Origin: a virus
Taxonomy: Duplodnaviria > Heunggongvirae > Uroviricota > Caudoviricetes
IMG/VR virus record: IMGVR_UViG_3300013005_000022
Span: 1 to 54,442 of that record
DNA length: 54,442 nucleotides
Strand: one strand, 5' to 3'
The notes under the pieces were generated by a model. That model was not told the DNA's origin and did not search any database. It saw only the letters and a list, made by a program, of their open reading frames with translations. A program made the translations under genes and the position numbers. Positions within the stretch are counted from its first letter, which is position 1, and each line of letters opens with the position of its first letter. Below, piece after piece: positions 99 through 52,780 of the stretch.

Positions 99-2645
99 AT
101 GGCTAACATTTCAATAAAAGAACTTTTTCCATCAGACTCTCTCTTAGATGCAGTTGAAAAGATAAATTTTAACTTCGATCAAGTAATTCTAGGTGGTGGA
201 GGTCCTCAAGGAGAAATCGGTGTAACCGGTAATGCCGGAGGACAGGGACCAATTGGAGATCGAGGAAACTATTGGTTTGCTGGATCTACTTATGGCGGAA
301 TAACAGGAGATTACTTCGGAAATCCATTAGAACTAGGTGATGGATTTGTGAGTACTGGTGGAACCGTGTTCATATACTCATATACTGGTGGATCTACCGG
401 ATGGTACAATACAGGAATTAATCTTGTTGGACCGAGTGGTCCGGTTGGTGCAACTGGAAGTTCATTCGAATGGCAATATTTTAGAGGAGCTACAGACATA
501 GGTGCTAACTCATGGGTTGCAGCTACTGCTGGAGGTGCCACTTCAATAACAAGTTCAAATAGAGATATTATTTCATATGTAGGCGCTGAGAAGAATATTG
601 TGTTTATGGGATCTACTGGTTGGGCTCAAAACGAGCTATCCGATTTTGGATTCTTTCCTACCGGATCTAACCTACAAAAACAGCTACCCACTCTAACGGT
701 TATTCAAAGATATATCGATGGAGATAGTGTTAGTGGAATTGCATTTGGTGCCGTTGGTTTAACTTCTGGCACTGCCGGAACACTTCCTACATCCGGAGAT
801 CTTAATGCATCAGTATCGGCTCTAGACTTTACGTATTATGGATTCGAAACTACAACAACAGATCCTTGGTTTAATGGAACTATAATACAAAGAGCAGTAG
901 TACATTCTCCTAAAATGCCAATGGCAATTAAGATTGGTGGAACTACTCCTTTAGAATCTCCGGCTAATTATTACCTAGAAGCCCAATATATGAAATTCAA
1001 TGATTATCTAAATGAGAAATCTTGGTTAACTGGTAATGATACAACTGGAAGTTCTAATATGGGGTTTCATCATATATTCTCAAAAAGTATTGGATTCAAT
1101 CCTCTTTCTACTGGAGTTGGAAAACAAGGTGCAGTAGTAATTCAAGGAGTTGAAGGATCCTATGCGGTTGGAACTTACCAACATAGATTAGGAAATACAA
1201 TTATCGGTTCAACCGCTGGTTTAGCTGGTAATATTGTAGCCGGGCTAATTATATCTAGAGGAAATACTGGAGGAATTAGTGCATCGAATAATTACGATTC
1301 ACATATATCATTACATGCCAATAATACATCAAATGCAATTGCTAAAATTATCGCATCAGTTGATTCAACTGGAGTTCCTAGAACCCAATTTGCATCATCC
1401 AGATTTGGTGTCGTTGGTCCAGTTCCAGGAGCTACTGGATCTACCGGTTTCTTAAATGGAGCGTGGAATTCAGAATCATATACTCCTAAAGTTCCTTTCC
1501 ACGTTATTCAAGATAGTGCAAATCTAAATACAATTAATGGATCCGGTGGTGGTATTAATGGTCTAACTCTTCCAATCAACTTGTCAAATTTAAGAGTATT
1601 ATCGATGAATGATGTTATTAATGCTCGTGGTGGTGGTCTTATTCAAGGACTTACTCCGGCATATAACATAACATCTTTTGTGAGTGGAGCTACTGTTGTT
1701 TATGGATTTGATGATATCGTTCTAAGAACTTTTGCTAGAGGAGCAACTAACCCATCGCCTAATATCTGGATTAATCCTGGTGGAACTGGTGTAAATGGTG
1801 GAGCGGTAGTCGTTGGATTAAACTTTCCAACCGGTAACTCTACTCTCGCTGGATCAACTGGTCAATACATTAGATCTAAGATGGCTATTGGAGGTCCAGT
1901 AACAATCGGTAGTAGTATTGATATACACCGAGATGCAGTTGCACCAACGGATGGAATAAGAATTCAAGGAGCAATATATCAAGGTCATGTAAAAAATTAC
2001 CCTGGAGCATCTGCCTCATATAACCTATTTGGTTATTATGGTGGAACTGGATCTTTCGGAAATGAAGGTATCTTAACTGTAGGTGATGAAATTTGGAATA
2101 GAGATGCTAATGCATCTTCACAATATTGGCAACAAAATGCTGGAAGTGCTGGAATGCCTTCGACATTTGCCGCTGCTTTTGGTGGAGCCGTTATAATTCA
2201 AGGAAAATCTCAAGCATCTGTACCGCTTGGTGGAAATATACAGAAGATAACAACTAAAGGACCTACTTCCGTAGATGCATCCCTTTTAGTTGGTGGATAT
2301 TCTATTTTTGGTGATGATGCATATGCACAATCATGGTTTGAAAAAGGACCTTGGTATACAGGAGGTATGGTTTCTAAGGTTGGTGTATTCGGAGATCCTA
2401 TTACAGGATATTCAACTCCGGGATACAATCCATTGGGTTTCCCTGATTCCGCAGTTCTATCTGCTAACTCAACCACTAAAGGTTTTGCTCCGCCGAGAAT
2501 GACTCACACCCAAAGAATAGCGATCGCTGGAGCTACAGTAGGTCTTATGGTATATCAATTAGGTGGAGGAACTGCTCCAATTGGTCAAGAAGGACTTTGG
2601 GTTTATCATTCAACTGGTTGGACTGGACCAGCAAGAATGGGATAA
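99..2645 (+). CDS. Gly-rich tail fibre / virion structural protein with short collagen-like repeats
   Basis: 848 aa. G-x-x repeats (GPQGEIGVTGNAGGQGPIGDRG; GPSGPVGATG), very G/S/T-rich body, C-terminal STTKGFAPPRMT...GLMVYQ...GLWVYHSTGW module typical of Bacteroidota fibre-like proteins. Preceded by a late-promoter-like motif. Confidence 0.7.
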   Translation: MANISIKELFPSDSLLDAVEKINFNFDQVILGGGGPQGEIGVTGNAGGQGPIGDRGNYWFAGSTYGGITGDYFGNPLELGDGFVSTGGTVFIYSYTGGSTGWYNTGINLVGPSGPVGATGSSFEWQYFRGATDIGANSWVAATAGGATSITSSNRDIISYVGAEKNIVFMGSTGWAQNELSDFGFFPTGSNLQKQLPTLTVIQRYIDGDSVSGIAFGAVGLTSGTAGTLPTSGDLNASVSALDFTYYGFETTTTDPWFNGTIIQRAVVHSPKMPMAIKIGGTTPLESPANYYLEAQYMKFNDYLNEKSWLTGNDTTGSSNMGFHHIFSKSIGFNPLSTGVGKQGAVVIQGVEGSYAVGTYQHRLGNTIIGSTAGLAGNIVAGLIISRGNTGGISASNNYDSHISLHANNTSNAIAKIIASVDSTGVPRTQFASSRFGVVGPVPGATGSTGFLNGAWNSESYTPKVPFHVIQDSANLNTINGSGGGINGLTLPINLSNLRVLSMNDVINARGGGLIQGLTPAYNITSFVSGATVVYGFDDIVLRTFARGATNPSPNIWINPGGTGVNGGAVVVGLNFPTGNSTLAGSTGQYIRSKMAIGGPVTIGSSIDIHRDAVAPTDGIRIQGAIYQGHVKNYPGASASYNLFGYYGGTGSFGNEGILTVGDEIWNRDANASSQYWQQNAGSAGMPSTFAAAFGGAVIIQGKSQASVPLGGNIQKITTKGPTSVDASLLVGGYSIFGDDAYAQSWFEKGPWYTGGMVSKVGVFGDPITGYSTPGYNPLGFPDSAVLSANSTTKGFAPPRMTHTQRIAIAGATVGLMVYQLGGGTAPIGQEGLWVYHSTGWTGPARMG

Positions 2646-6668: not shown

Positions 6669-6971
6669 ATGGAAATACCTAATTTTGAAAATTTTATCAA
6701 CGAAGGAAAAGTTACCATCAATAAAATGAATTTCACCATACATGTATTCAACGATACTAAAGGGTTATCTGTTCAATTTATTCCGGATAGTAAAACTCTA
6801 GATAAATTTTCAAAAAATGAAATGGTTGAATCTATTAAAACAAAACTAACCTCAGCAATGCCTAAATTTGCGGATTCTCTATATTTTGCAATAGATAATT
6901 CAGCTGCTGGTTTAAGTTTCCGTGTTGATACATTTGAATTAAGTGAAATAATTACAAAAGCTATTAAATAA
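6669..6971 (+). CDS. Hypothetical protein with capsid-targeting-like N-terminus
   Basis: Starts MEIPNFENFINEG. Late-promoter-like motif upstream. Confidence 0.7.
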   Translation: MEIPNFENFINEGKVTINKMNFTIHVFNDTKGLSVQFIPDSKTLDKFSKNEMVESIKTKLTSAMPKFADSLYFAIDNSAAGLSFRVDTFELSEIITKAIK

Positions 6972-11172: not shown

Positions 11173-11799
11173 ATGAAACATATACAACATTTCGATGACT
11201 TCTTAAATGAAGTAAAAAATGAAGACCAACCTAAAAAGGAAAGACGTGTCGGACATACTGTAAAAAGAGGATATTACAAATCAGATCCACCAGATATTGG
11301 TCTTTATTCTAAAGGAGGAAGAGATGCAATCAAAGGAACTGGATATGCCAATAAAGAAAAAGCCGAATTTACCATAAAGGAGCTAGATAAACTTATGGAT
11401 AAAGGAGAAAGAGTTTGGGCTATGTCTATTGCAACCACAATGGAATCTCGTGCTAAAAAACACCAACATCAAACAGATGGAATGCGTGATGCTATGAAGA
11501 TATTCCGTGAATGGATCGATAAAAACAAGAAAAGCGAATCCATTGAAGAAGCTGAAAGTAAAACTCTATTCCATCCCGGTGAAGGAGATAAAGTTGAAGG
11601 TACCGGATATGCTGATGCGGAAGCGGCTAACAAAACAATCGCCATCATTAATAAGTTAAAGAAAACTGATCATAATCATGCTATGGCAATTGCCACTACC
11701 ATGGAAAACCGAGCTAAAACTCACAAGTACAGTACTCCTGATATGAAAGAGGCAGCTAGAATATTTAGAGAATGGATCGATAAAAACAAGAAATCATAA
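11173..11799 (+). CDS. Putative internal head protein with two tandem copies of an about 75-aa domain
   Basis: Starts MKHIQHFDDFLNE. The GTGYA...AM.IATTME.RAK.H...M..A..IFREWIDKNKK unit occurs twice. Confidence 0.75.
   Translation: MKHIQHFDDFLNEVKNEDQPKKERRVGHTVKRGYYKSDPPDIGLYSKGGRDAIKGTGYANKEKAEFTIKELDKLMDKGERVWAMSIATTMESRAKKHQHQTDGMRDAMKIFREWIDKNKKSESIEEAESKTLFHPGEGDKVEGTGYADAEAANKTIAIINKLKKTDHNHAMAIATTMENRAKTHKYSTPDMKEAARIFREWIDKNKKS
11509..11793 (+). repeat. Identical 24-bp direct repeat at the ends of two duplicated domains
   Basis: GAATGGATCGATAAAAACAAGAAA at 11509-11532 and 11770-11793. Confidence 0.9.
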
Positions 11800-35530: not shown

Positions 35531-36283
35531 ATGAGTATCAAATCTTACGATGAATTTGTAAACGAACATTTAATAGGAGCTTACTCTTATTATGGTCAAG
35601 GGTCCTTATACCCTATTGTAAAAAAATTAGCGGAAGAGGGTAAAACACCTCAACAAGTTTATACCTATCTTACAACTTTAGGTATTGACGAAGAACGTAA
35701 ACAACGTGTTCTTGGTCAAGTATTTGAAAGAATAAACGAAGGTTTATTTGAAGATGATGATATACTTACGGCTAGTACAAAAGATCTTACCAAAGGCGTT
35801 CCGCCATCAAAAGCTAAACCAGACGAAGACGTTAAAGCGGCTTTAGATAAGTTGAAGACTGGCGATGACGAAGACATGGAAGATAAAGAAGACGATGATG
35901 AAACTAAAACTGATGATGATTCAGATTCAGCTAAAGTTGCAGCATTACAATCTGCTCTTAAAGATGCAGAAAAACTAGAAAAAATCAAGAAAATCCTTGC
36001 AGAATCTATGGAAATGGAAATCGAAGGAATTGAAGACGAAGTACTAGTTGATGTATTAGATTATCATTTAGATGAAAAACTTGATCCTAAAGTTAGAGCT
36101 GCTTTAAAAGATACTGACTTCGTATTTCAAGATAAAAGATCATGGCCTATTCATGATGAAAAACACGCTAAAACTGCATTAGTTTGGGCAACTTGGCCAC
36201 AATATAAAGACCTTAAAAAAGATATTGTTAAAGCCGTTCTTAAAAAATATCCTAACCTTAAAGGTGTAGGTGCTGCAAAGTAA
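35531..36283 (+). CDS. Putative internal head protein with acidic linker and C-terminal DUF6582-like domain
   Basis: MSIKSYDEFVNE leader. D/E-rich middle. R.AL.D.DF.F...R.WPIHD..HA..AL end domain. Confidence 0.65.
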   Translation: MSIKSYDEFVNEHLIGAYSYYGQGSLYPIVKKLAEEGKTPQQVYTYLTTLGIDEERKQRVLGQVFERINEGLFEDDDILTASTKDLTKGVPPSKAKPDEDVKAALDKLKTGDDEDMEDKEDDDETKTDDDSDSAKVAALQSALKDAEKLEKIKKILAESMEMEIEGIEDEVLVDVLDYHLDEKLDPKVRAALKDTDFVFQDKRSWPIHDEKHAKTALVWATWPQYKDLKKDIVKAVLKKYPNLKGVGAAK

Positions 36284-38275: not shown

Positions 38276-38677
38276 ATGTACGCAATTAAAACATATTCTG
38301 AATTCATAAACGAAGGTAAGTCTTCAAACTTCAATAGAACTTATACTATGGGTTCTACCTGGTGGGCTTTATGGAAAAAAGAAAACAAAGAAGATTTTGA
38401 TATAAAGCAAGATGCTTTTACCAAAACTTTTGAGGTTTATACGAAAGATAAAGAACCCAAATTAAAATTTGTTTTTGATTACGGACGAAATGTAGTTTTT
38501 ACCAACGATTCTCCTAAAATGTTTGAATTGGGAAGAATTAAACCTGCTGCTAAAGCAAGTGCAGAAGAGACCGATGCAGAAACTGGTAAAAAAGAAGTAA
38601 TTCCTGGAGCTGAAACCCCTAAAGAGGCAGAAGCCGAAGGGGAATTAACTACTGATAAAACCGAAGAAGAAGAATAA
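38276..38677 (+). CDS. Putative internal head protein with acidic tail
   Basis: MYAIKTYSEFINE leader. Confidence 0.7.
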   Translation: MYAIKTYSEFINEGKSSNFNRTYTMGSTWWALWKKENKEDFDIKQDAFTKTFEVYTKDKEPKLKFVFDYGRNVVFTNDSPKMFELGRIKPAAKASAEETDAETGKKEVIPGAETPKEAEAEGELTTDKTEEEE

Positions 38678-39949: not shown

Positions 39950-40522
39950 ATGAAGAATCTTAAAACATTTGCTGAATTCGTATTAGAATCTCAGGAATTT
40001 GATCCTGCTAAAACGACTGATATTGATGTTCTTTTACCTGCTATTAAATCTGCTTCAGAGCTAATGCCTGGTAAAGAATACGTTATCAATCTTGACGGTA
40101 AGACTCATGCCAATATGATGTATCAAGGTGTATCTGATGGTAATTACATCTTCAACTCTGAAGATATGAAAACCACATTAAACCTTAATACTGAACAAAT
40201 CAGTGGTGCCGTTTCAGTTGGAGGAGTTCAACAAGTAAACGAATCTAAATCTTATAAAGGAAGAGAAGTTTTCCCTAATTGGATTAATCCTAGTAGAGAT
40301 TTTGGTGCTCCAGTTAGTAAGACAAAAGATCTTAAACCTGGTGCTGAATATATCCTTTGGGAACCTGGAATGGACGTTTGGCAAGCTGAATGGATCTATC
40401 AAGGTTATACCGGTGGAAAACATATATTCAATGATTCTAATAAAGAAGCAGATCCTATGGTATTCACTCAATCTGAATTAGAAGAATACATTACAAGTGG
40501 TGACGTTATAAAGCAAAACTAA
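39950..40522 (+). CDS. Putative internal head protein (two copies of the same domain)
   Basis: MKNLKTFAEFVLE leader. LMPGKEY...YQGVSDGNYIFN and LKPGAEY...YQGYTGGKHIFN. Confidence 0.7.
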   Translation: MKNLKTFAEFVLESQEFDPAKTTDIDVLLPAIKSASELMPGKEYVINLDGKTHANMMYQGVSDGNYIFNSEDMKTTLNLNTEQISGAVSVGGVQQVNESKSYKGREVFPNWINPSRDFGAPVSKTKDLKPGAEYILWEPGMDVWQAEWIYQGYTGGKHIFNDSNKEADPMVFTQSELEEYITSGDVIKQN

Positions 40523-43466: not shown

Positions 43467-45371
43467 ATGAGTCAAAAATATTTGCTCGTACTGGAAAGAT
43501 CCTCTTCTGAATTAGACATCAAAACAGAAGGTGATAATTACGTTCTAGAAGGAATCTTTACAGAGATCGGCGTTAAAAACAAAAACAATCGTATTTACGA
43601 TGAAAAAGAAGTTCTTCCTCACATAGATGAACTTTTACAAAAGGTAAAAGGGAGTAAACTTTTAGGAGAATTAGATCATCCAAAATCTTTTGAAGTTTCT
43701 TTAAAAAATGCATCACATGTTATTGAAGCATTAGATTACGACAAAAACACCAAAAAAGTAATGGGTAGAATTCGTCTACTTAATACTAGTGCTGGTAAAG
43801 AAGCAAAAGCATTAGTTGATGCTGGTATTCCTTTACATATTTCTAGTCGTGCTGCTGGTGTAGTTGAGAATAATGGTCACGTTAAAATCAAAAAAATGTT
43901 TACTTACGATTTAGTTGCAGATCCTGGATTTGCTAATGCTGAATTATCAAGAGTAAATGAAGCATTTGGATTTGAGATGGATGATACATTAGGACTTTAT
44001 GAAATACCTTATGATTCTAAGTTAGCTGAGTCTTTCGAAGATCATGATAAAATTGATGAAAACAAACAAACTCAAAACATAAACAAATCTTCAAAAATGA
44101 ATACAACGGAGAACATTTCAGTTGAAGATTTTAACGAATATACAAAAATCGTTAAAAACGAAATTGAAAACCTTAAAAAACAAATCGCTGAGAGTAACAC
44201 TGATGCTGTAACAGAGAGTAATGAATCTTTGGTTAAGTATACCGAAACTATCGCAAAAAGAGTAAATCAAATCCAAGAAAACCTAGGTTCTTTAAAAGAG
44301 AATTTCGATCACTTGGTATCACACAATGATTACATCGTAGAAAACCTTGAAAAGGTTAAAGATTACGCTGAAATGGTTGGTGAGAAATCAAATCAAGGAA
44401 TTAACTATTCAGAAAAACTTGCTGAATCAGTTGACCACTTAATTGAGTACACTAAAATGGTTGCTGAAAAAGCAGATCATGGAATCTCTTATACTGAGAG
44501 AATCGCTGAATCTCTTGATTCTTCAATCGAATATCAAAACCACGTTACCAAAGAAGTTAATGAGCGTTTTGCTTACCAAACTTACATCAACGAACAAGTT
44601 GATAACATCATTTCCCATACAGATTATATCGTTGAAGGTTGTGATTCTATTATCAAGTACACTGAGTACTTAAAAGAGAACCAATCAAGTTTAACTGGTT
44701 ATATGGACTATGTAGTTAAAGGAATTAACGAAGGAAAAGTTATTACTAACGATCCTACAGACGATAATAAATCAGAAAACGGAAACGAAGATGATTCTAA
44801 AGTAAATGAAGGTGCTGATGCTACTGCTTCTACTGCTACAACTGCTGACGAATTTGAAAAAGAAATTAACTCTAAAGTTGATGCTATTTTAGAATCCGCT
44901 AAAGCTCAAAAAGATGAAGTTAAAAAATCTAAAATGCATTTCTTTAATTTCTTAGCAGAATCAAAAAGAAACGAATTTGAAGCGTTAAATCCTGAAATGC
45001 AAGAAAAAATCGTTGGTCTTTTCGAGTCTACTAAATGGTACGGTTCAACTGATGCTAATAACATTTGGGAATCTGCTTTCGCTAAACCAGTTGCTAAAAA
45101 TGATTGGTTAGCTAATATGCCAAATCGTTATGCTGAAGCTTGGAATTCATTAAACGAATCACAAAAGAATGCTATTAAAGCTCAAGCTTCGGTAAGAGTT
45201 CTTGATACACAATATCAAATCGATTCTTTCTGGTCATCTAGAGATTTAAGAGTTACTAAAGTAGAATCTACTACTCCTGTTGCTCCAATCAACGAATCAT
45301 CTAAGTACGAAACTCCAACTGAATACATGGATACTGTAGCTGCTGAATTAAAAAGAAGATTCAAAAGATAA
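43467..45371 (+). CDS. gp21: Prohead protease (gp21-like) fused to scaffold/core protein (gp22-like)
   Basis: LEGIF...N.NNR.Y, GELDHP, ISSRAAG, YDLVADP protease motifs, then about 470 aa of acidic coiled coil. Confidence 0.88.
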   Translation: MSQKYLLVLERSSSELDIKTEGDNYVLEGIFTEIGVKNKNNRIYDEKEVLPHIDELLQKVKGSKLLGELDHPKSFEVSLKNASHVIEALDYDKNTKKVMGRIRLLNTSAGKEAKALVDAGIPLHISSRAAGVVENNGHVKIKKMFTYDLVADPGFANAELSRVNEAFGFEMDDTLGLYEIPYDSKLAESFEDHDKIDENKQTQNINKSSKMNTTENISVEDFNEYTKIVKNEIENLKKQIAESNTDAVTESNESLVKYTETIAKRVNQIQENLGSLKENFDHLVSHNDYIVENLEKVKDYAEMVGEKSNQGINYSEKLAESVDHLIEYTKMVAEKADHGISYTERIAESLDSSIEYQNHVTKEVNERFAYQTYINEQVDNIISHTDYIVEGCDSIIKYTEYLKENQSSLTGYMDYVVKGINEGKVITNDPTDDNKSENGNEDDSKVNEGADATASTATTADEFEKEINSKVDAILESAKAQKDEVKKSKMHFFNFLAESKRNEFEALNPEMQEKIVGLFESTKWYGSTDANNIWESAFAKPVAKNDWLANMPNRYAEAWNSLNESQKNAIKAQASVRVLDTQYQIDSFWSSRDLRVTKVESTTPVAPINESSKYETPTEYMDTVAAELKRRFKR

Positions 45372-45479: not shown

Positions 45480-47099
45480 ATGTACTTAATTAACGAAAGT
45501 GAAATTTTTTCAAAATGGGCTCCAATTATCGAGTCTAATACTGGAATCACTGAGCGTTCTAGAGTTGAGTGGATGTCAAAATATTGCCATAACCACGAAT
45601 TATATGAGAACAACTCATATGCTCAACTAGGCGCTGTGAACGGTATGGGTGCTACTCGTTTCCCTGGAAACCCTGGTACTCAAGATGCTTTTGACACTCA
45701 AACTACAGGTTCTGGTGATAAAGCTCACACATTGCTACCTCTTGCTATGCAAGTTGCAGCTCAAACAATCGGATTGGACTTAGTTCCAGTTGTGCCAATG
45801 CCTGGTCCAATGGGTGTTTTAACTTATTTGGATTTCGTATATGCTGGTGGTAAAACTGCTGGTACTGGTGCTGATGTTCCTTTGATGGTTAAATTGAACT
45901 ACGGTTCTAACACAATCCCAGGATTCACAGTAGGTGGTTCAGGTGCTTCAGGTGGTGCTACTTTCTACATGGTAGGTTCTTCTCGTCTTGACGGTATGCC
46001 AATCTTACGTGTTGCTGGTACTCTAACAGGTTCTAACACAATCGTAGATTGCTTAACTAACATCACAATCGGTGGAGCTTCTGCTGGTACTACTTCTAAC
46101 TATTCAGTTGAATTAGTTAAAGCTCTAGAAGATCACATCACTGGTTTCTCTGGTCAAGCTCTTGCTAACAACGACTACACTGGATTCGATATTAACGATC
46201 CATATAGCCGTAACGAAGGTGAAAGTACTGCAGATAACGTAATGAACTTAAGTCTATTCAACAAATCAGTTGAAGCTAAGACTTTCCAAGTTGCTGCTGC
46301 TGTTACTCGTGAGCAAGTTCAAGACTTGAAACAATTCGGTATCGATGCTGTATCTCAAGTAGAAGCAGTTCTTATCAACGAATTAACTCAATCAATCAAC
46401 AAGAACATTCTTGCTCGTATCTTCGCTCTAGGAGAAAGAAACCACGAATACGTAATCCGTACTCAAGGTCAAAACTTCTTCTTGAACTTAGGTGCTACTG
46501 CTGCTCTAGTTTCTTCAACTAGCACTAACTCTCCTGCATCTAACTTCGGTGCTTACATTCAATCAACTACTTTACGTGGTGCTACTATGGCTGCGACTGA
46601 AAACGTTAACTCTGCTTCAGAAAACTTACATACTCGTCAACGTAAAATTATGTCTAAAGTATTAGCTATCGCTAACTTAATCGCTATTAGAGGTCGTCGT
46701 GGACCAGCTACTTTCGTAGTTACTAACGGTCAAGTTTGTTCAGCTTTACAAGACGTTGCTGGATTCGTACCTGCTCCAATGGCTAACACAATTAACCAAA
46801 TGAGTGGTTCACTTTACCCAATCGGTACTTTAGCTGGTTTGGCAGTGTATAACGATCCAAACATGAACTGGTCAGATACTCGTATGTGTATCGGACGTAA
46901 AGGTGACGGTAACTCTCCAGGGTTAGTGTTCATGCCTTACTTAATGGCTGAAAGTGTTCAAACTATCGCTGAAGGTACTATGGCTCCTAAAGTTGCGGTT
47001 AAATCTCGTTACGCTTTAGTTGAAGCTGGTTTCCACCCAGAAACTATGTACTTAACTTCAGGTGTATCGTTGAACAACGCATTCGGTTCACTTGCTTAA
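45480..47099 (+). CDS. gp23: Major capsid protein (T4 gp23-like)
   Basis: KWAP.IE, GLDLVPV.PM.GP.G.L..L, VEAKT, E..QDL...GID, E..Q.IN, PY........G...PK.A.KSRY. Strong high-expression codon bias. Confidence 0.96.
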   Translation: MYLINESEIFSKWAPIIESNTGITERSRVEWMSKYCHNHELYENNSYAQLGAVNGMGATRFPGNPGTQDAFDTQTTGSGDKAHTLLPLAMQVAAQTIGLDLVPVVPMPGPMGVLTYLDFVYAGGKTAGTGADVPLMVKLNYGSNTIPGFTVGGSGASGGATFYMVGSSRLDGMPILRVAGTLTGSNTIVDCLTNITIGGASAGTTSNYSVELVKALEDHITGFSGQALANNDYTGFDINDPYSRNEGESTADNVMNLSLFNKSVEAKTFQVAAAVTREQVQDLKQFGIDAVSQVEAVLINELTQSINKNILARIFALGERNHEYVIRTQGQNFFLNLGATAALVSSTSTNSPASNFGAYIQSTTLRGATMAATENVNSASENLHTRQRKIMSKVLAIANLIAIRGRRGPATFVVTNGQVCSALQDVAGFVPAPMANTINQMSGSLYPIGTLAGLAVYNDPNMNWSDTRMCIGRKGDGNSPGLVFMPYLMAESVQTIAEGTMAPKVAVKSRYALVEAGFHPETMYLTSGVSLNNAFGSLA

Positions 47100-47124: not shown

Positions 47125-47154
47125 AAAGAGCTTCCTTCGGGAAGCTCTTTTTTT
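47125..47154 (+). terminator. Intrinsic terminator after major capsid gene
   Basis: AAAGAGCTTCC-TTCG-GGAAGCTCTTT plus T run. Confidence 0.92.
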
Positions 47155-47205: not shown

Positions 47206-47781
47206 ATGATATATCCTAGTCAAGCAATACAAATCAGACCTGATCTAAAGGATTATAGAGATCTTTGTTCTAAATTCGGTTATCAACCGACTAAAGAGGA
47301 ATATGAAGAAACTCTTAAATTCCTTTTGCTATTCCATACAGGAATCGGTCATACATGTGAATCCCATGAAGTAGATTTTTTCTATCATGAAATGGAGATG
47401 CATTTATTAGAAAACAATCTTAATCAAGATCTTTTTGAATCCGCAGTTTTAAATGAAGAGCCTCATGCATTTGCAGATCCTGCTTCGGAAAAAGATACTG
47501 CTTTAGGTCTTATAACTGCTGCCGGAGTTGGTGCTGCTGGTCTTGGTGCTGCCGCCGCTGTTGGTGTTGGAATGTTTATTTCCTACCTTATGAAAAAAGG
47601 TAAAGTGAAATCTGCAGTTAAAACTGAATTAGCCGGTATGATGAAGAAATTAGAGCCTTACCAATTAATATACAAAAAGAGAGAAGAACTTTCCAAATTA
47701 AAAGGAGAAACTTTCGATGGAATTGGTAAGTTACCTGGTGTTTCTGAAGCACCGCCAATGGAAGAAAAGCCAGAAAAATAA
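47206..47781 (+). CDS. Hypothetical protein with glycine-zipper hydrophobic segment
   Basis: LGLITAAGVGAAGLGAAAAVGVGMFISYLM after a VLNE site. Confidence 0.65.
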   Translation: MIYPSQAIQIRPDLKDYRDLCSKFGYQPTKEEYEETLKFLLLFHTGIGHTCESHEVDFFYHEMEMHLLENNLNQDLFESAVLNEEPHAFADPASEKDTALGLITAAGVGAAGLGAAAAVGVGMFISYLMKKGKVKSAVKTELAGMMKKLEPYQLIYKKREELSKLKGETFDGIGKLPGVSEAPPMEEKPEK

Positions 47782-47799
47782 TTCAAAAAGAGCTTATAA

Positions 47800-50277
47800 A
47801 TGATGACTAAAAATCTAGAAAATCTTATTAGAGAAGAGTATCTAAGTGCTCTGTATGAACAACAAATAATAGAGAATTTATCAAATACTGAAATCGATAC
47901 ATTATTCAATGAATTTATTTCTGAAGTATCTGAACAATTCGATTTTGAAATTCCTGAAGAATCAACTATCGAGGAGATTTTAGAATCTTTCGAAGATTGG
48001 GATCTTACGGAAAATGAATCATACACAAAACTAATAGAGGCTATTGGTAAACGTCCGAGTGCTACAAAAAGAAAGCCGACAAAACCAAAAAGACCTATGG
48101 CGAATAAGCCAAAACCTAATCAGAATAAACCTAAGCCAAAACCTAAGGCTAAACCTGAACCTAAGGCTAAACCTGAACCTAAAAAAATGGATGTTAAACC
48201 TAAAGGGGAAAAGCCAGAAGGTAAAAAACCTGAAGGTCCTACTAAGGCTGAAAAGGAAGAAAAGATATCAGCCGAGAAGCAAAAGATTAAAGATCAAATT
48301 GATTCTCTTAATACTCAAAAGGATTCTCTTCAAGGAAAAGATGATAACAAATCTCGTGAATTAGAAACGAAGATTAAATCTCTAGATGCAGAAAAAACTA
48401 AATTAACTGCAGTACAAAAGAAAGAATCCGGAGATGAAAAGGCTGGTGATTATGCCAAATTATCCTCTCTCAAAAAAGCAGAAGCTGATGCATATGCTGC
48501 ATGGACTAAAGTTAAGAACGAAACATCGGAATCTGTAACTGAAGCAGAAGATGAAGAAGTTGAAGCTAGTACCAAAGAAGCTAAAATTAAATTCTTAAAT
48601 GCTCGTATTGCAACTCTTAAACAACAAGAGGCAATGGCCGATTCCCCTGAAGGAAAAACTAAACAGAAAGAAGCCGTTGCTAATGCAGAAAAAGAACTTG
48701 TCGCTTTAGGTGCTGAATCTACTGACGGTGAATCTACCGAAGAGAAAGAGAAATCTCTTAAAGATGTTAAGAAGGAAAATGCAGAACTTAATAAACAACT
48801 TAATACTGCAAAAACCGAAAAACTTAAAGCTGATAATAAAGTAAAAGAGATCAAAGATCAAATTGCTAATGAACAAGATCCGGCTAAGAAAACCGAACTT
48901 AATAAACAACTTAATGCTGCTTCAGAAGAGGCATCGATAAAAGGTAATGAAGTATCTGAACTTCAACCAAAGGTTGATGATTCTGATGAAGAATTAGAAG
49001 CCGCAAAAGAAAAAAGCGGTGGATCTGATAAAGATAAGAAAGAGAAGATATCTGCTGCCGAAAAGAAGATTGAAGATATTAATTCTAAACTAGAATCAGA
49101 AGAAGATCCGGAAAAAAGAGATATTCTTAAACAAAAACGAAAAGAAGCAAAGGCAGAACTTGCTAAACTCACTGGTAAAGAAGCAGAAGAAGATACTGAT
49201 TCTGAATCTGATAGAATGCAAGATGAATTAGTCAATAAGAAAAAAATTGAGGCAATTCAAACTAAAGTTGATGAACTTAACGATCAATTAGCTGCAGAAA
49301 AAGATCCAGCTAAAAGAAAGTTAATTAAAGATAAAATCAAAAAAGAGAAAGCCGAAATATCTAAACTTAAAGGCGAAGAACCCACTGAAGAAGAACCTAG
49401 TGATGATGAAAAGGCTGCTGATACTGAAGCGGAAAATGCAGATAAAATTGCAAAACTTGAAGCTGAACTTGAAAAACTAGAATCCGATGCCGATTCTAAA
49501 GTGTCCGCTCATGAAGAAGCAGTACAGGCTCAAATGAAAAAAACCAACGATATAGTTGGTTGGAATTTAATGCTTAAGAGACTTGCTACTCGTATGAGAA
49601 TGGAAAATATGGTTGAGTATAACAACGCTAAAATTCAACTTGCTTCTCCTGATCTAAAAGACAAATTAGAAGAAAAAGATAAAGAACTTGAAAAACTAGT
49701 TTCTCAAGCAGATGAAGATCTTAAAAAGGCAGAAGATGAAAATAATAAAGAGCACGCTAAAGATCCAGAAGTTAAAGATGCTCAAGCAGTTGCTGATACC
49801 GAAGAAGCTGAAGGAGATACTCAAAAACCGAGCGGATCTTCTAAATCTAGTGAAGATGACGTTGAAGCTAAATTTGCTGCACAGAAAAAAGCTAGAGAAG
49901 ATGCCGAAAAGGCTGCTCAAACTAAAGGAAGAAATGCCGATATTGAAGCTAAAGGAAATACTCCACAAGAAAAGGCCAAAGATTACTCTATTAAAAAATT
50001 AGAAACTAAAATATCTGCTATTTCAACTGCATGGCAAAAAATGCAAGATGATGCTAGTAAAGCTAAAGGTAAAGATAAAGAAAAATTAGATATGAAAGCT
50101 TCGGCAATCGAGAAAAATCTTAATCTTGCTAAGGAAGAGTTAACCAAATTAAAAAGTGGATCTTCTACACCAAATGAATCATTTGAAGATTTTGAATCTG
50201 GTGTTTGGGCAATCGACTTTATCCTAGAAAGAGTTGAAAACCAAATGAATGAATATCAATTCTTAATTAGCGAATAA
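47800..50277 (+). CDS. Very K/E-rich coiled-coil protein with Pro-Lys linker and internal repeats
   Basis: 825 aa. KPKPKPKAKPEPKAKPEP and three E.DP.K helical-hairpin repeats. Confidence 0.7.
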   Translation: MMTKNLENLIREEYLSALYEQQIIENLSNTEIDTLFNEFISEVSEQFDFEIPEESTIEEILESFEDWDLTENESYTKLIEAIGKRPSATKRKPTKPKRPMANKPKPNQNKPKPKPKAKPEPKAKPEPKKMDVKPKGEKPEGKKPEGPTKAEKEEKISAEKQKIKDQIDSLNTQKDSLQGKDDNKSRELETKIKSLDAEKTKLTAVQKKESGDEKAGDYAKLSSLKKAEADAYAAWTKVKNETSESVTEAEDEEVEASTKEAKIKFLNARIATLKQQEAMADSPEGKTKQKEAVANAEKELVALGAESTDGESTEEKEKSLKDVKKENAELNKQLNTAKTEKLKADNKVKEIKDQIANEQDPAKKTELNKQLNAASEEASIKGNEVSELQPKVDDSDEELEAAKEKSGGSDKDKKEKISAAEKKIEDINSKLESEEDPEKRDILKQKRKEAKAELAKLTGKEAEEDTDSESDRMQDELVNKKKIEAIQTKVDELNDQLAAEKDPAKRKLIKDKIKKEKAEISKLKGEEPTEEEPSDDEKAADTEAENADKIAKLEAELEKLESDADSKVSAHEEAVQAQMKKTNDIVGWNLMLKRLATRMRMENMVEYNNAKIQLASPDLKDKLEEKDKELEKLVSQADEDLKKAEDENNKEHAKDPEVKDAQAVADTEEAEGDTQKPSGSSKSSEDDVEAKFAAQKKAREDAEKAAQTKGRNADIEAKGNTPQEKAKDYSIKKLETKISAISTAWQKMQDDASKAKGKDKEKLDMKASAIEKNLNLAKEELTKLKSGSSTPNESFEDFESGVWAIDFILERVENQMNEYQFLISE
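48142..48180 (+). repeat. 18-bp in-frame tandem repeat (PKAKPE x2)
   Basis: CCTAAGGCTAAACCTGAA twice, plus CCT. Confidence 0.9.
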
Positions 50278-50765
50278 TGGAAATCATTAGACAAAATCTA
50301 GGAAAACGTCCAACCAAGTTCGGTATAGTTCTAGATCGACTTAAACCTAGATATCAAAGAATATTAAAGAAGAATCCTATCATTCGTAATTACTCAACGG
50401 ATGATAGGATCCTTAAATGTATCTTCAAAATAGAAGATAGATTAATACAAGTATCTCATCTCAAAAGAGTTTTTATTGAACCTAAAAGCAGAGAAATATC
50501 CACTTTTAAAATCATCAGAGAATCATATCATCAATTCGATTGGAATTGTACTTTTTGCAATAAACCAATCAAATCTCGAATAGATAATTATGAACCAGGA
50601 AACTTTACTTGCACGAAATGCGAGAATACATATATTAAAGGAACTCGAAAAATTCCTAGACGAATAATCGAGGAATCTTTAAGATTCACAGAACATGTGA
50701 AAACTTTAATGAAGACTGATCAAAAGAAAATTATAAAATATATCAAGAAAAATGATGAATCTTAA
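50277..50765 (+). CDS. Basic zinc-finger hypothetical protein
   Basis: CTFC and CTKC pairs. Confidence 0.65.
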   Translation: MEIIRQNLGKRPTKFGIVLDRLKPRYQRILKKNPIIRNYSTDDRILKCIFKIEDRLIQVSHLKRVFIEPKSREISTFKIIRESYHQFDWNCTFCNKPIKSRIDNYEPGNFTCTKCENTYIKGTRKIPRRIIEESLRFTEHVKTLMKTDQKKIIKYIKKNDES

Positions 50766-52257
50766 GTACTTCAGTGATTTTGTTAATGAAGCAAAAACTA
50801 CTGACGCAAAAACTGTTAAAAATCCGAGAGTTAAACTAGTACTACTAACGAATGCTAGTAAAGAATCTCATACCGTTCCTTCGTTCGAAGCAGAATGTAA
50901 AAAAATGGGTGTTGAATTCATCGTTATTGATATCAGTACAGCAATGATTGCTGATGGTAAAGACGGTAACTTCTTCATCAGTGATAAAGAAAATCCAAAA
51001 GGCCTTAAGATCAATGCAGATAATACTGCAGTTTTAACTCGTCGTGGAGTTGTTAGAAATACTTATACAAAATCACTAGTTGAGAAGTTAGAAGATAATA
51101 ACTTCTTTGTTGTAAATACACTTGAAGCTATTATGGCTTGTGAGAACAAATATGTTACTACAAAAATCCTTAAAGAAGCTGGACTTCCAGTTCCTAAAAC
51201 TGCTATTGTTGATGGAGAAGACTCTATTGAAAGAGCGGTTAAAGATGTTGGTGGTAAATTCCCAGTAGTTTGTAAAATCCTTTCTGGATCTCAAGGAATT
51301 GGAGTTTCTATTGTAGATTCTCTTGCCTCTCTTAAATCTGTTTTACAGACCATATGGAAAGTTGATCCCTCTGTTGAAATCTTGATTCAAGAGAAGATCG
51401 AATCTGAATACGATTTAAGAATACACGTTTTGACGAGAAAATTCAACTCGCCAACACCAGAAGACACCGATTCGGTACTTCTTGGTTACATGAGAAGAAA
51501 TCGTGTTAAAAAAGACTTCCGTACTAATTACTCTTTAGGCGGAACCGTTGAAAAAACTAAAGTAACACCAGAACAAGAGAAAATAGCTATCGAATCAGCT
51601 AAGGCTGTTGGTTGTAATTGGTGTGGAGTTGATATTATCGTAGATAAGAAAACTGGTGCTAATTACGTTCTAGAAGTTAATGCTTCTCCAGGAACTACTG
51701 GTTTGAAAAAAGCTACTGGTGTTAACGTTGTTAAAGATATCGTTCAATTCTTAATGGATAAAACCAACTGGATTCGTTCTAGAAAACGTGTTGGTTTCCG
51801 TGAAGTAATTCAGATCCCTAATCTTGGTGATGTGGTTGCTAAATTTGATACTGGTAATGGATCTCTTTCTTGTACACTTACATACGATAAAATAGATGTT
51901 AATGAAAAAGAAAAACTAGTTAAATGGACTTTAGGTAAAAGAGATTTTGAATCTAAATTTGTCGGATTCACCGAAACCGAAGTTGGTGATACTGTAGAGA
52001 AACGTCCAGTTATTGAAATGGATATTCAATTTGCTGGTAAAGTATACAAGAAAGTTCCGGTTGCATTAGATGATCGTTCTACCAAAAGTACTAAATTCCT
52101 TGTGAATCGTAAATTCATGGAGAGAATTGGTTGTTCAGTAGATCCAATGAGAACTTTCGTGGTAACTTCATTTCCTGAAGATTATCATGGTGGAGAAGCT
52201 AAAAAGGATCCACATGCAGGAATTATCTTTGAATGGGATAAAAAGAAAACTAAATAA
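50752..52257 (+). CDS. rimK: RimK-family ATP-grasp ligase fused to a retropepsin-like (RimB / PF05618-type) protease
   Basis: NKY.T...L..AGLPVPKT, K...GSQGIGV, IQE.I...YD.R, FRTNYSLGG, GVDI, LEVNASPG; then GFRE..., AKFDTGN, RPVI, DRS..., L..R.F. Confidence 0.85.
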   Translation: MMNLKYFSDFVNEAKTTDAKTVKNPRVKLVLLTNASKESHTVPSFEAECKKMGVEFIVIDISTAMIADGKDGNFFISDKENPKGLKINADNTAVLTRRGVVRNTYTKSLVEKLEDNNFFVVNTLEAIMACENKYVTTKILKEAGLPVPKTAIVDGEDSIERAVKDVGGKFPVVCKILSGSQGIGVSIVDSLASLKSVLQTIWKVDPSVEILIQEKIESEYDLRIHVLTRKFNSPTPEDTDSVLLGYMRRNRVKKDFRTNYSLGGTVEKTKVTPEQEKIAIESAKAVGCNWCGVDIIVDKKTGANYVLEVNASPGTTGLKKATGVNVVKDIVQFLMDKTNWIRSRKRVGFREVIQIPNLGDVVAKFDTGNGSLSCTLTYDKIDVNEKEKLVKWTLGKRDFESKFVGFTETEVGDTVEKRPVIEMDIQFAGKVYKKVPVALDDRSTKSTKFLVNRKFMERIGCSVDPMRTFVVTSFPEDYHGGEAKKDPHAGIIFEWDKKKTK

Positions 52258-52730
52258 TGCCTTTACCAAGTAGTGGTCCTATAGGAGTAGGTGCAATCTA
52301 TCAAGAACTTACTGGATCTGCGGTAGAAGGTCCTACACAAGTACAGAAGTGTTTTAATGGAGAATATGCAACAATTAACCCTAATAGCCCAACTCAACCG
52401 AGTGCATCCACTCCTTATTCTCTAGGATCATTTCATGGATATGATCAGAATGCTGGTGGATTAAAGTTATTCTTCAGATCACAAGATTCTCAATCGTTTC
52501 CTCAAGATTCCTGCTATACTCAATGTCTTGTACCACAATGGCATAACGGAGCAGGTACATTACCTACTATAGGCGATACTGTATATAATGATTCCAGCGG
52601 CAATCAACCTATTCCATCTAATGGAAATTATTTTGGAATGAGTGAAGTAGAAGGAAATCCAGCATATTCCGCTTTTTTAACTTTCAAACAATCTGGTAAT
52701 GTAACAGATGTTTATTTCTGTGGTTTTTAG
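52257..52730 (+). CDS. Small virion/fibre-associated protein
   Basis: MPLPSSGPI...IN..S...P....PYSLGSFHGYD N-terminus typical of phage minor structural proteins. Confidence 0.55.
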   Translation: MPLPSSGPIGVGAIYQELTGSAVEGPTQVQKCFNGEYATINPNSPTQPSASTPYSLGSFHGYDQNAGGLKLFFRSQDSQSFPQDSCYTQCLVPQWHNGAGTLPTIGDTVYNDSSGNQPIPSNGNYFGMSEVEGNPAYSAFLTFKQSGNVTDVYFCGF

Positions 52731-52752
52731 TAATAAATTTGTTAATATTTCT

Positions 52753-52780
52753 AAAGTCGAGAGCAATCTCGACTTTTTTT
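52753..52780 (+). terminator. Intrinsic terminator ending the late head operon
   Basis: AAAGTCGAGA-GCAA-TCTCGACTTT plus T run. Confidence 0.9.

What the first reader, a model, noticed from the sequence alone, without database searches (positions are those of the whole stretch)
50752..52257. RimK ligase and RimB-type protease in one polypeptide carrying a capsid-targeting leader
Seen: leader MMNLKYFSDFVNE, a full ATP-grasp RimK-like domain, and a C-terminal retropepsin-like domain (AKFDTGN), encoded in the late operon after the capsid gene. Established: RimK poly-glutamylates ribosomal protein S6 (RpsF), and Pseudomonas RimB (PF05618-type) is reported to cleave poly-glutamate in the rimABK system. 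Inference: a fused writer/eraser for peptide tagging that is packaged in the virion and could modify host ribosomes, or another target, immediately after injection and before any phage transcription. Phage rimK genes alone are known. The injection angle is the new hypothesis.
Basis: partly seen in the sequence, partly recalled or inferred. Interest (0 to 1): 0.8.

Follow-up and report, generated by a model that had tools for sequence, protein, structure and literature searches.

The report
Capsid-tagged phage RimK–RimB fusion enzyme
A T4-like phage of Bacteroidota makes one protein that joins a glutamate-adding enzyme (RimK) to a glutamate-trimming protease (RimB). It starts with the short tag T4 uses to load proteins into its head, so it is probably carried in the virion and delivered to the next host. 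The fusion has been known from phage metagenomes since 2008; only the tag is new.

Summary
ORF 50752-52257 (+) encodes 501 aa in four parts:
- a 13-residue leader ending VNE|A;
- a complete RimK-family ATP-grasp ligase (TIGR00768 above its cut-off; best fold match is RimK);
- a RimB-like retropepsin domain with an invariant D-T-G;
- a conserved C-terminal tail.

The leader aligns with the T4 capsid-targeting sequence MKTYQEFIAE|A. It heads 14 otherwise unrelated ORFs of this 160-kb genome: 14 of 17 six-frame matches lie at ORF starts. It is kept in RimK-RimB homologs down to 43-50% identity, whatever their genomic neighbourhood. The phage encodes a gp21-type (Peptidase_S77) prohead protease. 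Here the gene sits in a terminator-bounded five-gene unit just after the capsid gene.

Packaging, cleavage and ejection are inferred, not shown. The only experimental hint is that the Yersinia phage YerA41 homolog was detected in purified particles. Ribosomal protein S6 is a doubtful target: Flavobacterium-like S6 ends in basic residues, and part of RimK's poly-Glu pocket is changed.

The fusion is not new. Monier et al. (2008) saw phage RimK with a C-terminal DUF785, and a bacterial RimBK hybrid was described in 2025. This scan has also flagged the fusion on several other phage genomes. The new element is the packaging tag: a new variant of a known kind.

The parts
50752..50790 (+). Leader, residues 1-13 (MMNLKYFSDFVNE). 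T4-CTS-like propeptide; predicted cleavage after Glu13, before Ala14.
   Evidence: Disordered in the AF2 model, pLDDT below 50 for residues 1-25.
50791..50829 (+). Variable Lys/Thr-rich linker, residues 14-26.
   Evidence: Poorly conserved and of variable length in the alignment; low pLDDT.
50830..51771 (+). RimK-family ATP-grasp ligase, residues 27-340. K175, R223, R257, D294, E308 and N310 align with RimK K141, R189, R211, D248, E260 and N262.
51778..52167 (+). RimB-like (PF05618) retropepsin-type domain, residues 343-472.
   Evidence: all-beta in the model; homodimer prediction.
51847..51855 (+). D366-T367-G368, the predicted catalytic Asp motif (AKFDTGN).
   Evidence: Invariant in 43 homologs. 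Lies at the predicted dimer axis. RimB D31 of the DTG motif is catalytic (PMC11957791).
52168..52257 (+). Conserved C-terminal tail, residues 473-501 (...H-A-G-I-x-F-E...), plus the stop codon. Function unknown.
   Evidence: Y478, K484, G490 and F493 are invariant; C-termini listed.
47125..47150 (+). Intrinsic terminator after the capsid gene; upstream boundary of the unit.
   Evidence: A terminator at the same place in relatives L005 and L007.
47206..50765 (+). Three upstream ORFs of the same unit: 191 aa with a hydrophobic segment; 825 aa, Lys/Glu-rich and scaffold-like; 162 aa with a CxxC...CxxC motif. The last overlaps the start of the fusion gene.
   Evidence: no family matched; synteny.
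52257..52776 (+). Last ORF of the unit (157 aa; its start overlaps the fusion's stop) and the terminator at 52753-52776.
43467..45371 (+). gp21-type prohead protease (Peptidase_S77, 634 aa), the presumed enzyme that removes the leaders.
   Evidence: PF03420 49 bits against a cut-off of 27; phrog_207.
45480..47099 (+). T4 gp23-type major capsid protein.
   Evidence: PF07068 on orthologs.
38276..38677 (+). Leader-bearing 133-aa ORF ending in ...TEEEE. A candidate co-packaged substrate; a lead only.
6669..6971 (+). Another leader-bearing ORF (MEIPNFENFINE|G).
11173..11799 (+). Another leader-bearing ORF (MKHIQHFDDFLNE|V).
35531..36283 (+). Another leader-bearing ORF (MSIKSYDEFVNE|H).
39950..40522 (+). 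Another leader-bearing ORF (MKNLKTFAEFVLE|S).

Best explanation
The gene encodes a bifunctional enzyme: a RimK-family ATP-dependent amino-acid (most likely L-glutamate) ligase fused to a RimB-type retropepsin-like aspartic endopeptidase. A T4-type capsid-targeting propeptide precedes both domains.

Proposed course, all steps inferred:
1. The protein is made with the head-core genes.
2. Its 13-residue leader docks it into the scaffolding core of the prohead.
3. The gp21-type S77 protease cuts after Glu13 (V-N-E|A) and frees a 488-residue enzyme inside the head.
4. At the next infection the enzyme leaves the head with the DNA, as T4 Alt and the internal proteins do.
5. In the new cell the ligase domain uses ATP to add Glu to a protein C-terminus. 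The dimeric protease domain trims or cuts Glu runs, and may stimulate the ligase as RimB does. A single tag thus delivers a writer and an eraser in 1:1 ratio before any phage gene is expressed.

Shown here: the domains, the conserved catalytic motifs, the leader family, the protease gene, and the operon structure. Not shown: packaging, cleavage, ejection and activity. The target is open. Host S6 is possible only if it ends in Glu.
For: Domains:
-;
- AF2 model pLDDT 83.5 with residues 1-25 disordered;
- best fold match is RimK 7qys, TM 0.88 normalised to the target.

Protease domain dimer: ipSAE 0.58 against a best control of 0.00. That mark was reached by 20 of 30 proteins solved as pairs of one chain and by 1 of 23 solved as single chains. 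The runs agree in at least 90% of contacts, pLDDT is at least 86, and the interface centres on K364-N369 with Asp-Asp apposed. The pass may reflect likeness to solved retropepsin dimers.

Leader:
- Aligned from the cleavage Glu, ours K-Y-F-S-D-F-V-N-E|A against T4 IPII/IPIII K-T-Y-Q-E-F-I-A-E|A.
- Aromatic residues stand at the T4 targeting positions 4 and 7; an aliphatic residue and Glu stand at the processing positions 8 and 10 (PMC9026906).
- 14 of 17 genome-wide motif hits are at ORF N-termini.
- The other ten carriers tested have no known family, like the T4 internal proteins.
- In 82 related loci a PWM finds 77 N-terminal hits against 3 in internal control windows.
- The leader is kept on the fusion in nearly all of 120 close homologs, in many of 54 RimK-then-RimB cluster representatives below 50% identity, and in IMG/VR lineages where the gene is not near head genes.
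- Cyanophage S-RIM8 RimK lacks it, so it is a portable module and not part of the enzyme.

Context: S77 protease present. Head-module synteny, gp2-portal-protease-capsid-...-fusion, holds at 54-66% identity.

Experiment: the YerA41 homolog ('ribosomal protein modification protein', g112/gp066) was detected by LC-MS/MS in purified particles (PMC7354516; annotation).
Against: - There is no direct evidence of packaging, cleavage or ejection for this protein or any close relative.
- The YerA41 particle proteome also contains DNA polymerase, RNR alpha and helicases, so its specificity is moderate. The YerA41 gene is listed before the late class, and its N-terminus does not resemble the T4 tag.
- The head-operon position holds for only about 20 of 80 IMG/VR loci. 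In marine relatives such as Mosig the gene lies among replication genes, next to regA, gp44 and DNA polymerase.
- No late promoter could be identified.
- RimK acts as a tetramer and retropepsins act as dimers. How such an oligomer would be packed and ejected is unknown.
- Poly-Glu pocket residues R8, S68, H215 and R216 of RimK are N, V, S and L here, so the chemistry may differ from S6 glutamylation.
Confidence: 0.55

Rival explanations
1. The enzyme is an ordinary intracellular phage enzyme (an auxiliary gene). It is made during infection and acts in the producing cell on host translation or other proteins, as Monier et al. proposed in 2008. The N-terminal motif is not used for packaging of this protein.
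For: - Phage RimK genes without a leader exist (S-RIM8).
- In Mosig and Melnitz the gene sits in the replication cluster.
- The YerA41 homolog falls in the pre-late expression class.
- PMC2530865 proposed a T7-kinase-like role in translation.
Against: - The leader is conserved on the fusion across lineages below 50% identity, while the following linker is not.
- The same leader heads 13 unrelated ORFs.
- It matches the T4 CTS determinants.
- In this clade the gene is translationally coupled to head-core genes.
Confidence: 0.22
2. The enzyme is packaged, but its substrate is phage cargo rather than a host protein. Candidates are the co-tagged 133-aa protein ending in EEEE (38276-38677), or core fragments left with C-terminal Glu by the prohead protease. 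It would build or trim poly-Glu tails on them inside the assembling head or just after ejection.
For: - The only ORF of the genome ending in three or more Glu carries the leader.
- All 7 of its homolog clusters keep a ...(T/D)EEE(E) end.
- gp21-type proteases cut after Glu, and so create Glu C-termini.
- The 825-aa core-like protein ends in ...LISE.
Against: - The EEEE-tailed family is narrow: 7 clusters, against more than 1000 homologs of the fusion.
- A PWM test on 82 related loci found no enrichment of Glu tails among leader ORFs, 2 of 77 against 14 of 1564.
- No phage ORF has a run of five or more Glu, whereas RimB needs about six.
Confidence: 0.13
3. The ATP-grasp domain acts on a small molecule or on modified DNA rather than on a protein. 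Precedents are the RimK-family cofactor ligases MptN and CofF, or a step in base hypermodification.
For: - MptN and CofF models score next best after rimK_fam.
- YerA41 has hypermodified thymidine.
- In Mosig and Melnitz the gene is next to DNA polymerase.
Against: - The equivalog cut-offs of MptN and CofF are missed by far.
- The fused partner is a peptidase whose only known substrates are poly-Glu peptides.
- A CTS tag makes little sense for a biosynthetic enzyme.
Confidence: 0.05

Closest known systems
Putative phage RimK with C-terminal DUF785 (PF05618) from GOS marine metagenomes (Monier, Claverie and Ogata 2008, Genome Biol 9:R106, PMC2530865)
   Same: Same architecture (ATP-grasp then PF05618) in T4-like phage contigs next to regA, clamp loader, gp17 and gp18. 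Same family as Mosig_00005, which is 34% identical over 94% of the protein.
   Different: That work did not know what DUF785 does and did not notice an N-terminal tag. It proposed an intracellular role. Here the gene lies in the head module, and the tag is shown to be shared with other ORFs.
Pseudomonas RimK + RimB (rimABK) and the bacterial hybrid RimBK of Desulfotalea psychrophila (PMC11957791, PMC7343187, PMC10092738)
   Same: RimK fold and ATP/Mg ligands. RimB-type retropepsin domain with a catalytic DTG. Ligase and poly-Glu endopeptidase work as a pair.
   Different: - Domain order is RimK then RimB, not RimB then RimK.
- There is no RimA and no c-di-GMP control.
- An N-terminal propeptide is present.
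- Part of the poly-Glu pocket is changed.
- Only about 25% identical to RimK.
- No close relative in 185,579 bacterial genomes.
Phage T4 capsid-targeting sequence cargo: IPI, IPII, IPIII and the ADP-ribosyltransferase Alt
   Same: A 10-13-residue N-terminal tag ending in Glu-Ala. A gp21-type protease. Many unrelated tagged proteins per genome. For Alt, a packaged enzyme that modifies host machinery on arrival.
   Different: The cargo enzyme is a ligase-protease fusion, which is not known as T4 cargo. The host is Bacteroidota. Nothing has been tested experimentally.
Yersinia phage YerA41 gp066 (g112, 'ribosomal protein modification protein') and phage GN1 homolog
   Same: Same two-domain architecture, 33% identity over 85% of the protein. 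Detected in purified particles by LC-MS/MS.
   Different: The N-terminus is not T4-CTS-like. The gene sits beside RNR and dUTPase genes and is listed before the late class. The particle proteome also includes many replication enzymes.

Membership tests
RimK family alpha-L-glutamate ligase (TIGR00768 / PF08443) | Score above the curated family cut-off | tested here: met
   TIGR00768 156.2 bits against 143.4; PF08443 117.2 bits against 21.
RimK family alpha-L-glutamate ligase (TIGR00768 / PF08443) | ATP-grasp fold closest to solved RimK | tested here: met
   AF2 pLDDT 83.5. Foldseek top hits are 7qys, 5zct, 7qyr and 4iwx, with target-normalised TM 0.83-0.88.
RimK family alpha-L-glutamate ligase (TIGR00768 / PF08443) | ATP/Mg2+ ligands (RimK K141, D248, E260, N262) | tested here: met
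   K175, D294, E308 and N310 align with them and are invariant in 43 homologs.
RimK family alpha-L-glutamate ligase (TIGR00768 / PF08443) | Poly-Glu contact residues of RimK (S7, R8, S14, R64, S68, R189, N262; H215/R216 loop) | tested here: inconclusive
   R64, R189 and N262 are kept as R97, R223 and N310. R8, S68, H215 and R216 are N34, V101, S261 and L262. The N-terminal part was aligned by eye.
30S ribosomal protein S6--L-glutamate ligase (equivalog NF007764) | Score above the equivalog cut-off | tested here: not met
   96.8 bits against a cut-off of 331.
30S ribosomal protein S6--L-glutamate ligase (equivalog NF007764) | Host S6 offers a C-terminal Glu-Glu acceptor | tested here: inconclusive
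   The host is unknown. Of 34 Bacteroidota S6 proteins, 4 end in EE, and the Flavobacterium-like type ends in ...KSTKA.
RimB-like retropepsin (PF05618) | Pfam gathering score | tested here: not met
   23.4 bits for the full protein and 25.7 for the domain alone, against 27. Marginal.
RimB-like retropepsin (PF05618) | Profile-level homology to solved or annotated family members over the whole domain | tested here: met
   Profile against PDB: 9g59_A E 6e-7 (residues 347-470 against 8-147 of 152), 9g58_A 3e-5, 2pma_A. 22 of 27 members hit PF05618, best E 9e-9, and no other family.
RimB-like retropepsin (PF05618) | Catalytic Asp in a hydrophobic-hydrophobic-D-T/S-G motif | tested here: met
   K-F-D366-T-G-N-G is invariant. 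The equivalent RimB D31 is essential.
RimB-like retropepsin (PF05618) | Homodimer that brings two DTG motifs together | tested here: met
   Prediction only. ipSAE 0.58 against a best control of 0.00; the mark was reached by 20 of 30 solved homodimers and 1 of 23 single chains. Contacts agree at 90% or more, pLDDT at least 86, D366-D366 apposed. The pass may stem from likeness to solved dimers.
RimB-like retropepsin (PF05618) | Endopeptidase activity on six or more contiguous Glu | not testable with these tools
   Needs an enzyme assay.
Bacterial RimBK hybrid (DP2392 type) | RimB domain N-terminal to RimK | tested here: not met
   The order here is RimK then RimB. Of the 150 best cluster representatives, 54 have RimK then RimB and 4 have RimB then RimK.
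T4-type CTS-tagged head cargo | N-terminal tag of about 10 residues resembling MKTYQEFIAE, ending in Glu before a small residue | tested here: met
   KYFSDFVNE|A against KTYQEFIAE|A. The determinant positions match.
T4-type CTS-tagged head cargo | The same tag on several unrelated proteins of the phage | tested here: met
   14 ORFs; 14 of 17 motif hits are N-terminal. No shared family among them.
T4-type CTS-tagged head cargo | gp21-type (Peptidase_S77) prohead protease encoded | tested here: met
   ORF 43467-45371, PF03420 49 bits against 27.
T4-type CTS-tagged head cargo | Physical presence in the head, removal of the tag, and ejection | not testable with these tools
   Only indirect: the YerA41 homolog is particle-associated.

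The most novel reading that the evidence does not exclude
The virion carries a self-contained polyglutamylation system. The tagged RimK-RimB enzyme travels together with a tagged substrate, the 133-aa protein at 38276-38677 whose conserved end is ...TEEEE. After ejection the enzyme uses host ATP and glutamate to grow, and the protease domain to size, a poly-Glu tail on that cargo. This would turn the cargo into a polyanionic effector, for example a nucleic-acid mimic or a decoy. Protein tailing would then serve as a post-injection activation step.
Probability: 0.07. Interest if true: 0.85.

Novelty: new variant of a known kind. Interest (0 to 1): 0.58.

Why it matters
If the tag works as it does in T4, large T4-related phages of aquatic and gut Bacteroidota and of marine heterotrophs deliver a protein-tailing enzyme pair into the cell together with their DNA. 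After the ADP-ribosyltransferase Alt, that would be a second, chemically different way for a phage to modify host proteins before any phage gene is expressed.

It would also make the injected cargo of uncultured phages predictable from sequence. And it would give the RimK/RimB field, where the role of the hybrid enzymes is open, a natural case with a defined time and place of action.

The hypothesis can be tested in cultured carriers: Mosig, Melnitz (RimK only, with leader) and YerA41.

Tried and rejected
1. T4 late promoter. TATAAATA occurs 6 times in the window against 8.9 expected. One copy lies 22 nt before the first ORF of the unit (47177), but relatives L005 and L007 lack it. No timing claim is made.

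2. Sigma-70 promoter scan: not above the shuffled controls.

3. Bacterial origin or prophage copies. A scan of 185,579 genomes with the family alignment gave one distant Acidobacteriota RimK only.

4. General link between Glu-tailed proteins and the tag. A PWM-defined test on 82 related loci was negative, 2 of 77 against 14 of 1564 with two or more terminal Glu. Three EEE-tailed ORFs whose N-termini looked vaguely tag-like by eye scored negative.

5. Poly-Glu runs of five or more in phage ORFs: none.

6. Families for the other tag-bearing ORFs and for the four operon neighbours: none in Pfam or PHROGs.

7. Foldseek with the full model listed only ATP-grasp hits in the top 50, so the C-terminal domain rests on profile searches.

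8. Tag family in pelagiphage Mosig. In the first 50 kb only the fusion carries a tag-like N-terminus.

10. A literature search for RimK together with virion or packaging found nothing specific.
Full report
**What is there.** ORF 50752-52257 on the + strand encodes 501 residues.

The ligase part:
- Residues about 27-340 are a complete RimK-family ATP-grasp ligase. PF08443 gives E 8.7e-34. The NCBIfam subfamily model TIGR00768 scores 156.2 bits against a cut-off of 143.4.
- The nearest solved sequences are Pseudomonas and E. coli RimK.
- The AlphaFold model, built on 43 homologs, has pLDDT 83.5 and pTM 0.79. It superposes best on RimK, with target-normalised TM up to 0.88.
- The ATP/Mg ligands K175, D294, E308 and N310 align with RimK K141, D248, E260 and N262 and are invariant in the family.
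- The equivalog model for the S6 ligase is missed by far, 96.8 against 331 bits.
- Of the RimK residues that contact poly-Glu in 7qyr, R64, R189 and N262 are kept. R8, S68 and the H215/R216 loop are replaced.
- The domain is therefore a RimK-family ligase, but not demonstrably an S6 ligase.

**The C-terminal domain.**
- Residues about 343-472 score just below Pfam's cut-off for PF05618, 23.4-25.7 against 27 bits.
- A family profile hits the solved PF05618 proteins 9g59_A (E 6e-7 over the whole domain), 9g58_A and 2pma_A.
- PF05618 is matched by 22 of 27 members and is the only family matched.
- K-F-D366-T-G-N-G is invariant.
- PF05618 is the RimB family. RimB was shown in 2025 to be a retropepsin-like aspartic endopeptidase whose DTG aspartate is essential. 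It cuts runs of about six or more Glu and stimulates RimK (PMC11957791).
- A two-copy prediction of the domain passes. The ipSAE is 0.58 against a best control of 0.00. That mark was reached by 20 of 30 solved homodimers and 1 of 23 single chains. Runs agree in at least 90% of contacts, and pLDDT is at least 86.
- The two DTG loops face each other across the axis. This fits a retropepsin-type active dimer, but it may simply reflect likeness to solved dimers.

**The leader.**
- Residues 1-13, MMNLKYFSDFVNE, are followed by Ala and a variable Lys/Thr-rich linker. Residues 1-25 are disordered in the model.
- T4 IPII and IPIII, read from NC_000866, begin MKTYQEFIAE|A. Aligned from the cleavage Glu, ours has aromatic residues at T4 positions 4 and 7. 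Those are the targeting determinants. It has an aliphatic residue and Glu at positions 8 and 10, the processing determinants (PMC9026906).
- In the 160,448-bp genome a strict 7-mer motif occurs 17 times in six frames, and 14 of these lie in the first 12 residues of + strand ORFs.
- Of the 13 other carriers, the ten tested have no Pfam or PHROG family. This matches the diversity of T4 internal proteins.
- The phage encodes a gp21-type Peptidase_S77 prohead protease, a gp23-type capsid protein, a T4-type portal, gp2 and gp4.

**Conservation.**
- More than 1000 metagenomic homologs exist. The best 120 are all full-length (484-577 aa, apart from one of 468 aa; 53-94% identity). Nearly all keep the leader core (Y/F-F-x-D/E-F-...-N-E-A), the DTG motif and a conserved C-terminal tail.
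- A profile of the protease domain, searched against 1.84 billion cluster representatives, gives 729 hits. Among the best 150, 54 have RimK then RimB, 4 have RimB then RimK, and 69 are short. Many of the RimK-then-RimB representatives below 50% identity start with a tag-like motif.
- In 80 IMG/VR loci the head-module neighbourhood holds only for about 20 loci of this sub-clade. The group at 43-50% identity has other neighbours, and marine relatives place the gene after gp44 and regA, as in pelagiphage Mosig. The leader is kept in all of these lineages.
- Cyanophage S-RIM8 RimK, which has no protease domain, lacks the leader. Melnitz RimK has it.
- The leader is thus a portable module under selection on this enzyme, independent of gene position.

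**Transcription unit.** A strong terminator follows the capsid gene (47125-47150). Five tightly packed or overlapping ORFs come next: 191 aa, 825 aa (Lys/Glu-rich), 162 aa, the fusion, and 157 aa. A second terminator lies at 52753-52776. The terminator after the capsid gene recurs in relatives. Late timing is plausible but not shown.

**External evidence.**
- The YerA41 homolog (33% identity, same architecture) is annotated as a structural protein.
- The paper lists g112, 'ribosomal protein modification protein', among 63 particle-associated proteins found by LC-MS/MS (PMC7354516).
- That list also contains replication enzymes, the gene is listed before the late class, and its N-terminus differs. 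The support is moderate.

**Target.**
- The host is unknown. Earlier notes of this scan call it Bacteroidota, Flavobacterium-like; I did not test this.
- Among 34 Bacteroidota S6 proteins only 4 end in Glu-Glu. A recurrent type ends in ...RRAKLKSTKA; from memory, this is the Flavobacterium type. S6 is therefore a weak candidate here.
- A lead: the only ORF of the genome ending in three or more Glu (38276-38677...TEEEE) carries the leader, and all 7 homolog clusters keep that end.
- That family is narrow, and a PWM-based test in related loci found no general enrichment.

**Prior art and novelty.**
- Phage RimK with a C-terminal DUF785 was reported from GOS contigs in 2008 (PMC2530865).
- The bacterial RimBK hybrid and the RimB mechanism were reported in 2025.
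- CTS cargo, and Alt as an injected enzyme, are classic T4 biology.
- I found no paper that links RimK to a capsid-targeting tag.
- This scan has flagged the same fusion on several other phage genomes.
- The finding is a new variant of known kinds: a known phage fusion enzyme predicted to be head cargo.

**Verdict.**
- Observation confirmed; interpretation partly supported.
- Odds: domain identity about 0.97; packaging and processing about 0.65; delivery of active enzyme to the next host about 0.5; S6 as the target about 0.15.

Noticed in passing
window 38276-38677: A leader-bearing 133-aa ORF with an acidic disordered tail ending ...TDKTEEEE. The 3-4 terminal Glu are kept in all 7 homolog clusters (71-93% identity). 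It resembles an S6-like RimK acceptor.
   Followed up: partly
window 44574-44594 (residues 370-376 of the protease ORF 43467-45371): An internal copy of the leader motif (YQTYINE) lies just after the S77 protease domain of the 634-aa protease-plus-extension protein. It may be an autoprocessing site.
   Followed up: no
window 99-2645, residue about 300: The only other internal occurrence of the strict leader motif (FNDYLNE) in a long ORF.
   Followed up: no
window 47800-50277; L005 4537-7530; L007 6491-7498: A Lys/Glu-rich ORF between the capsid gene and the fusion varies from 335 to 997 aa among relatives and has no known family. It has many aliphatic-x-Glu motifs and ends in ...LISE. It is probably a scaffold or core protein.
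   Followed up: no
P0083, P0102, P0104 (515 aa homologs): Some homologs carry a short C-terminal extension that ends in a second leader-like string (...FPNFDSFLNESI). It looks as if the fusion gene were read through into the start of the next tagged gene.
   Followed up: no
P0008, P0011, P0012 (570-571 aa) and P0094, P0105, P0106, P0109 (573-577 aa): Longer variants of the fusion exist. One set has a C-terminal extension of about 70 aa (PF18905 hit). The other has an insertion of about 80 aa before the ligase.
   Followed up: no
IMG/VR loci L127-L206: The genomic position of the fusion differs by lineage: head module in this clade, unknown neighbours in the group at 43-50% identity, and after gp44 and regA in the marine clade. 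The leader is kept in all of them.
   Followed up: partly
L093-L126 (Bacteroidota rpsF loci): S6 C-termini in Bacteroidota range from basic tails (...KSTKA) to genome-encoded runs of 4-7 Glu. Encoded poly-Glu tails therefore exist in some lineages.
   Followed up: partly
window 50277-50765: A 162-aa ORF with a CxxC...CxxC motif is translationally coupled to the fusion. It is conserved upstream of the fusion in about 20 related loci and has no known family.
   Followed up: no
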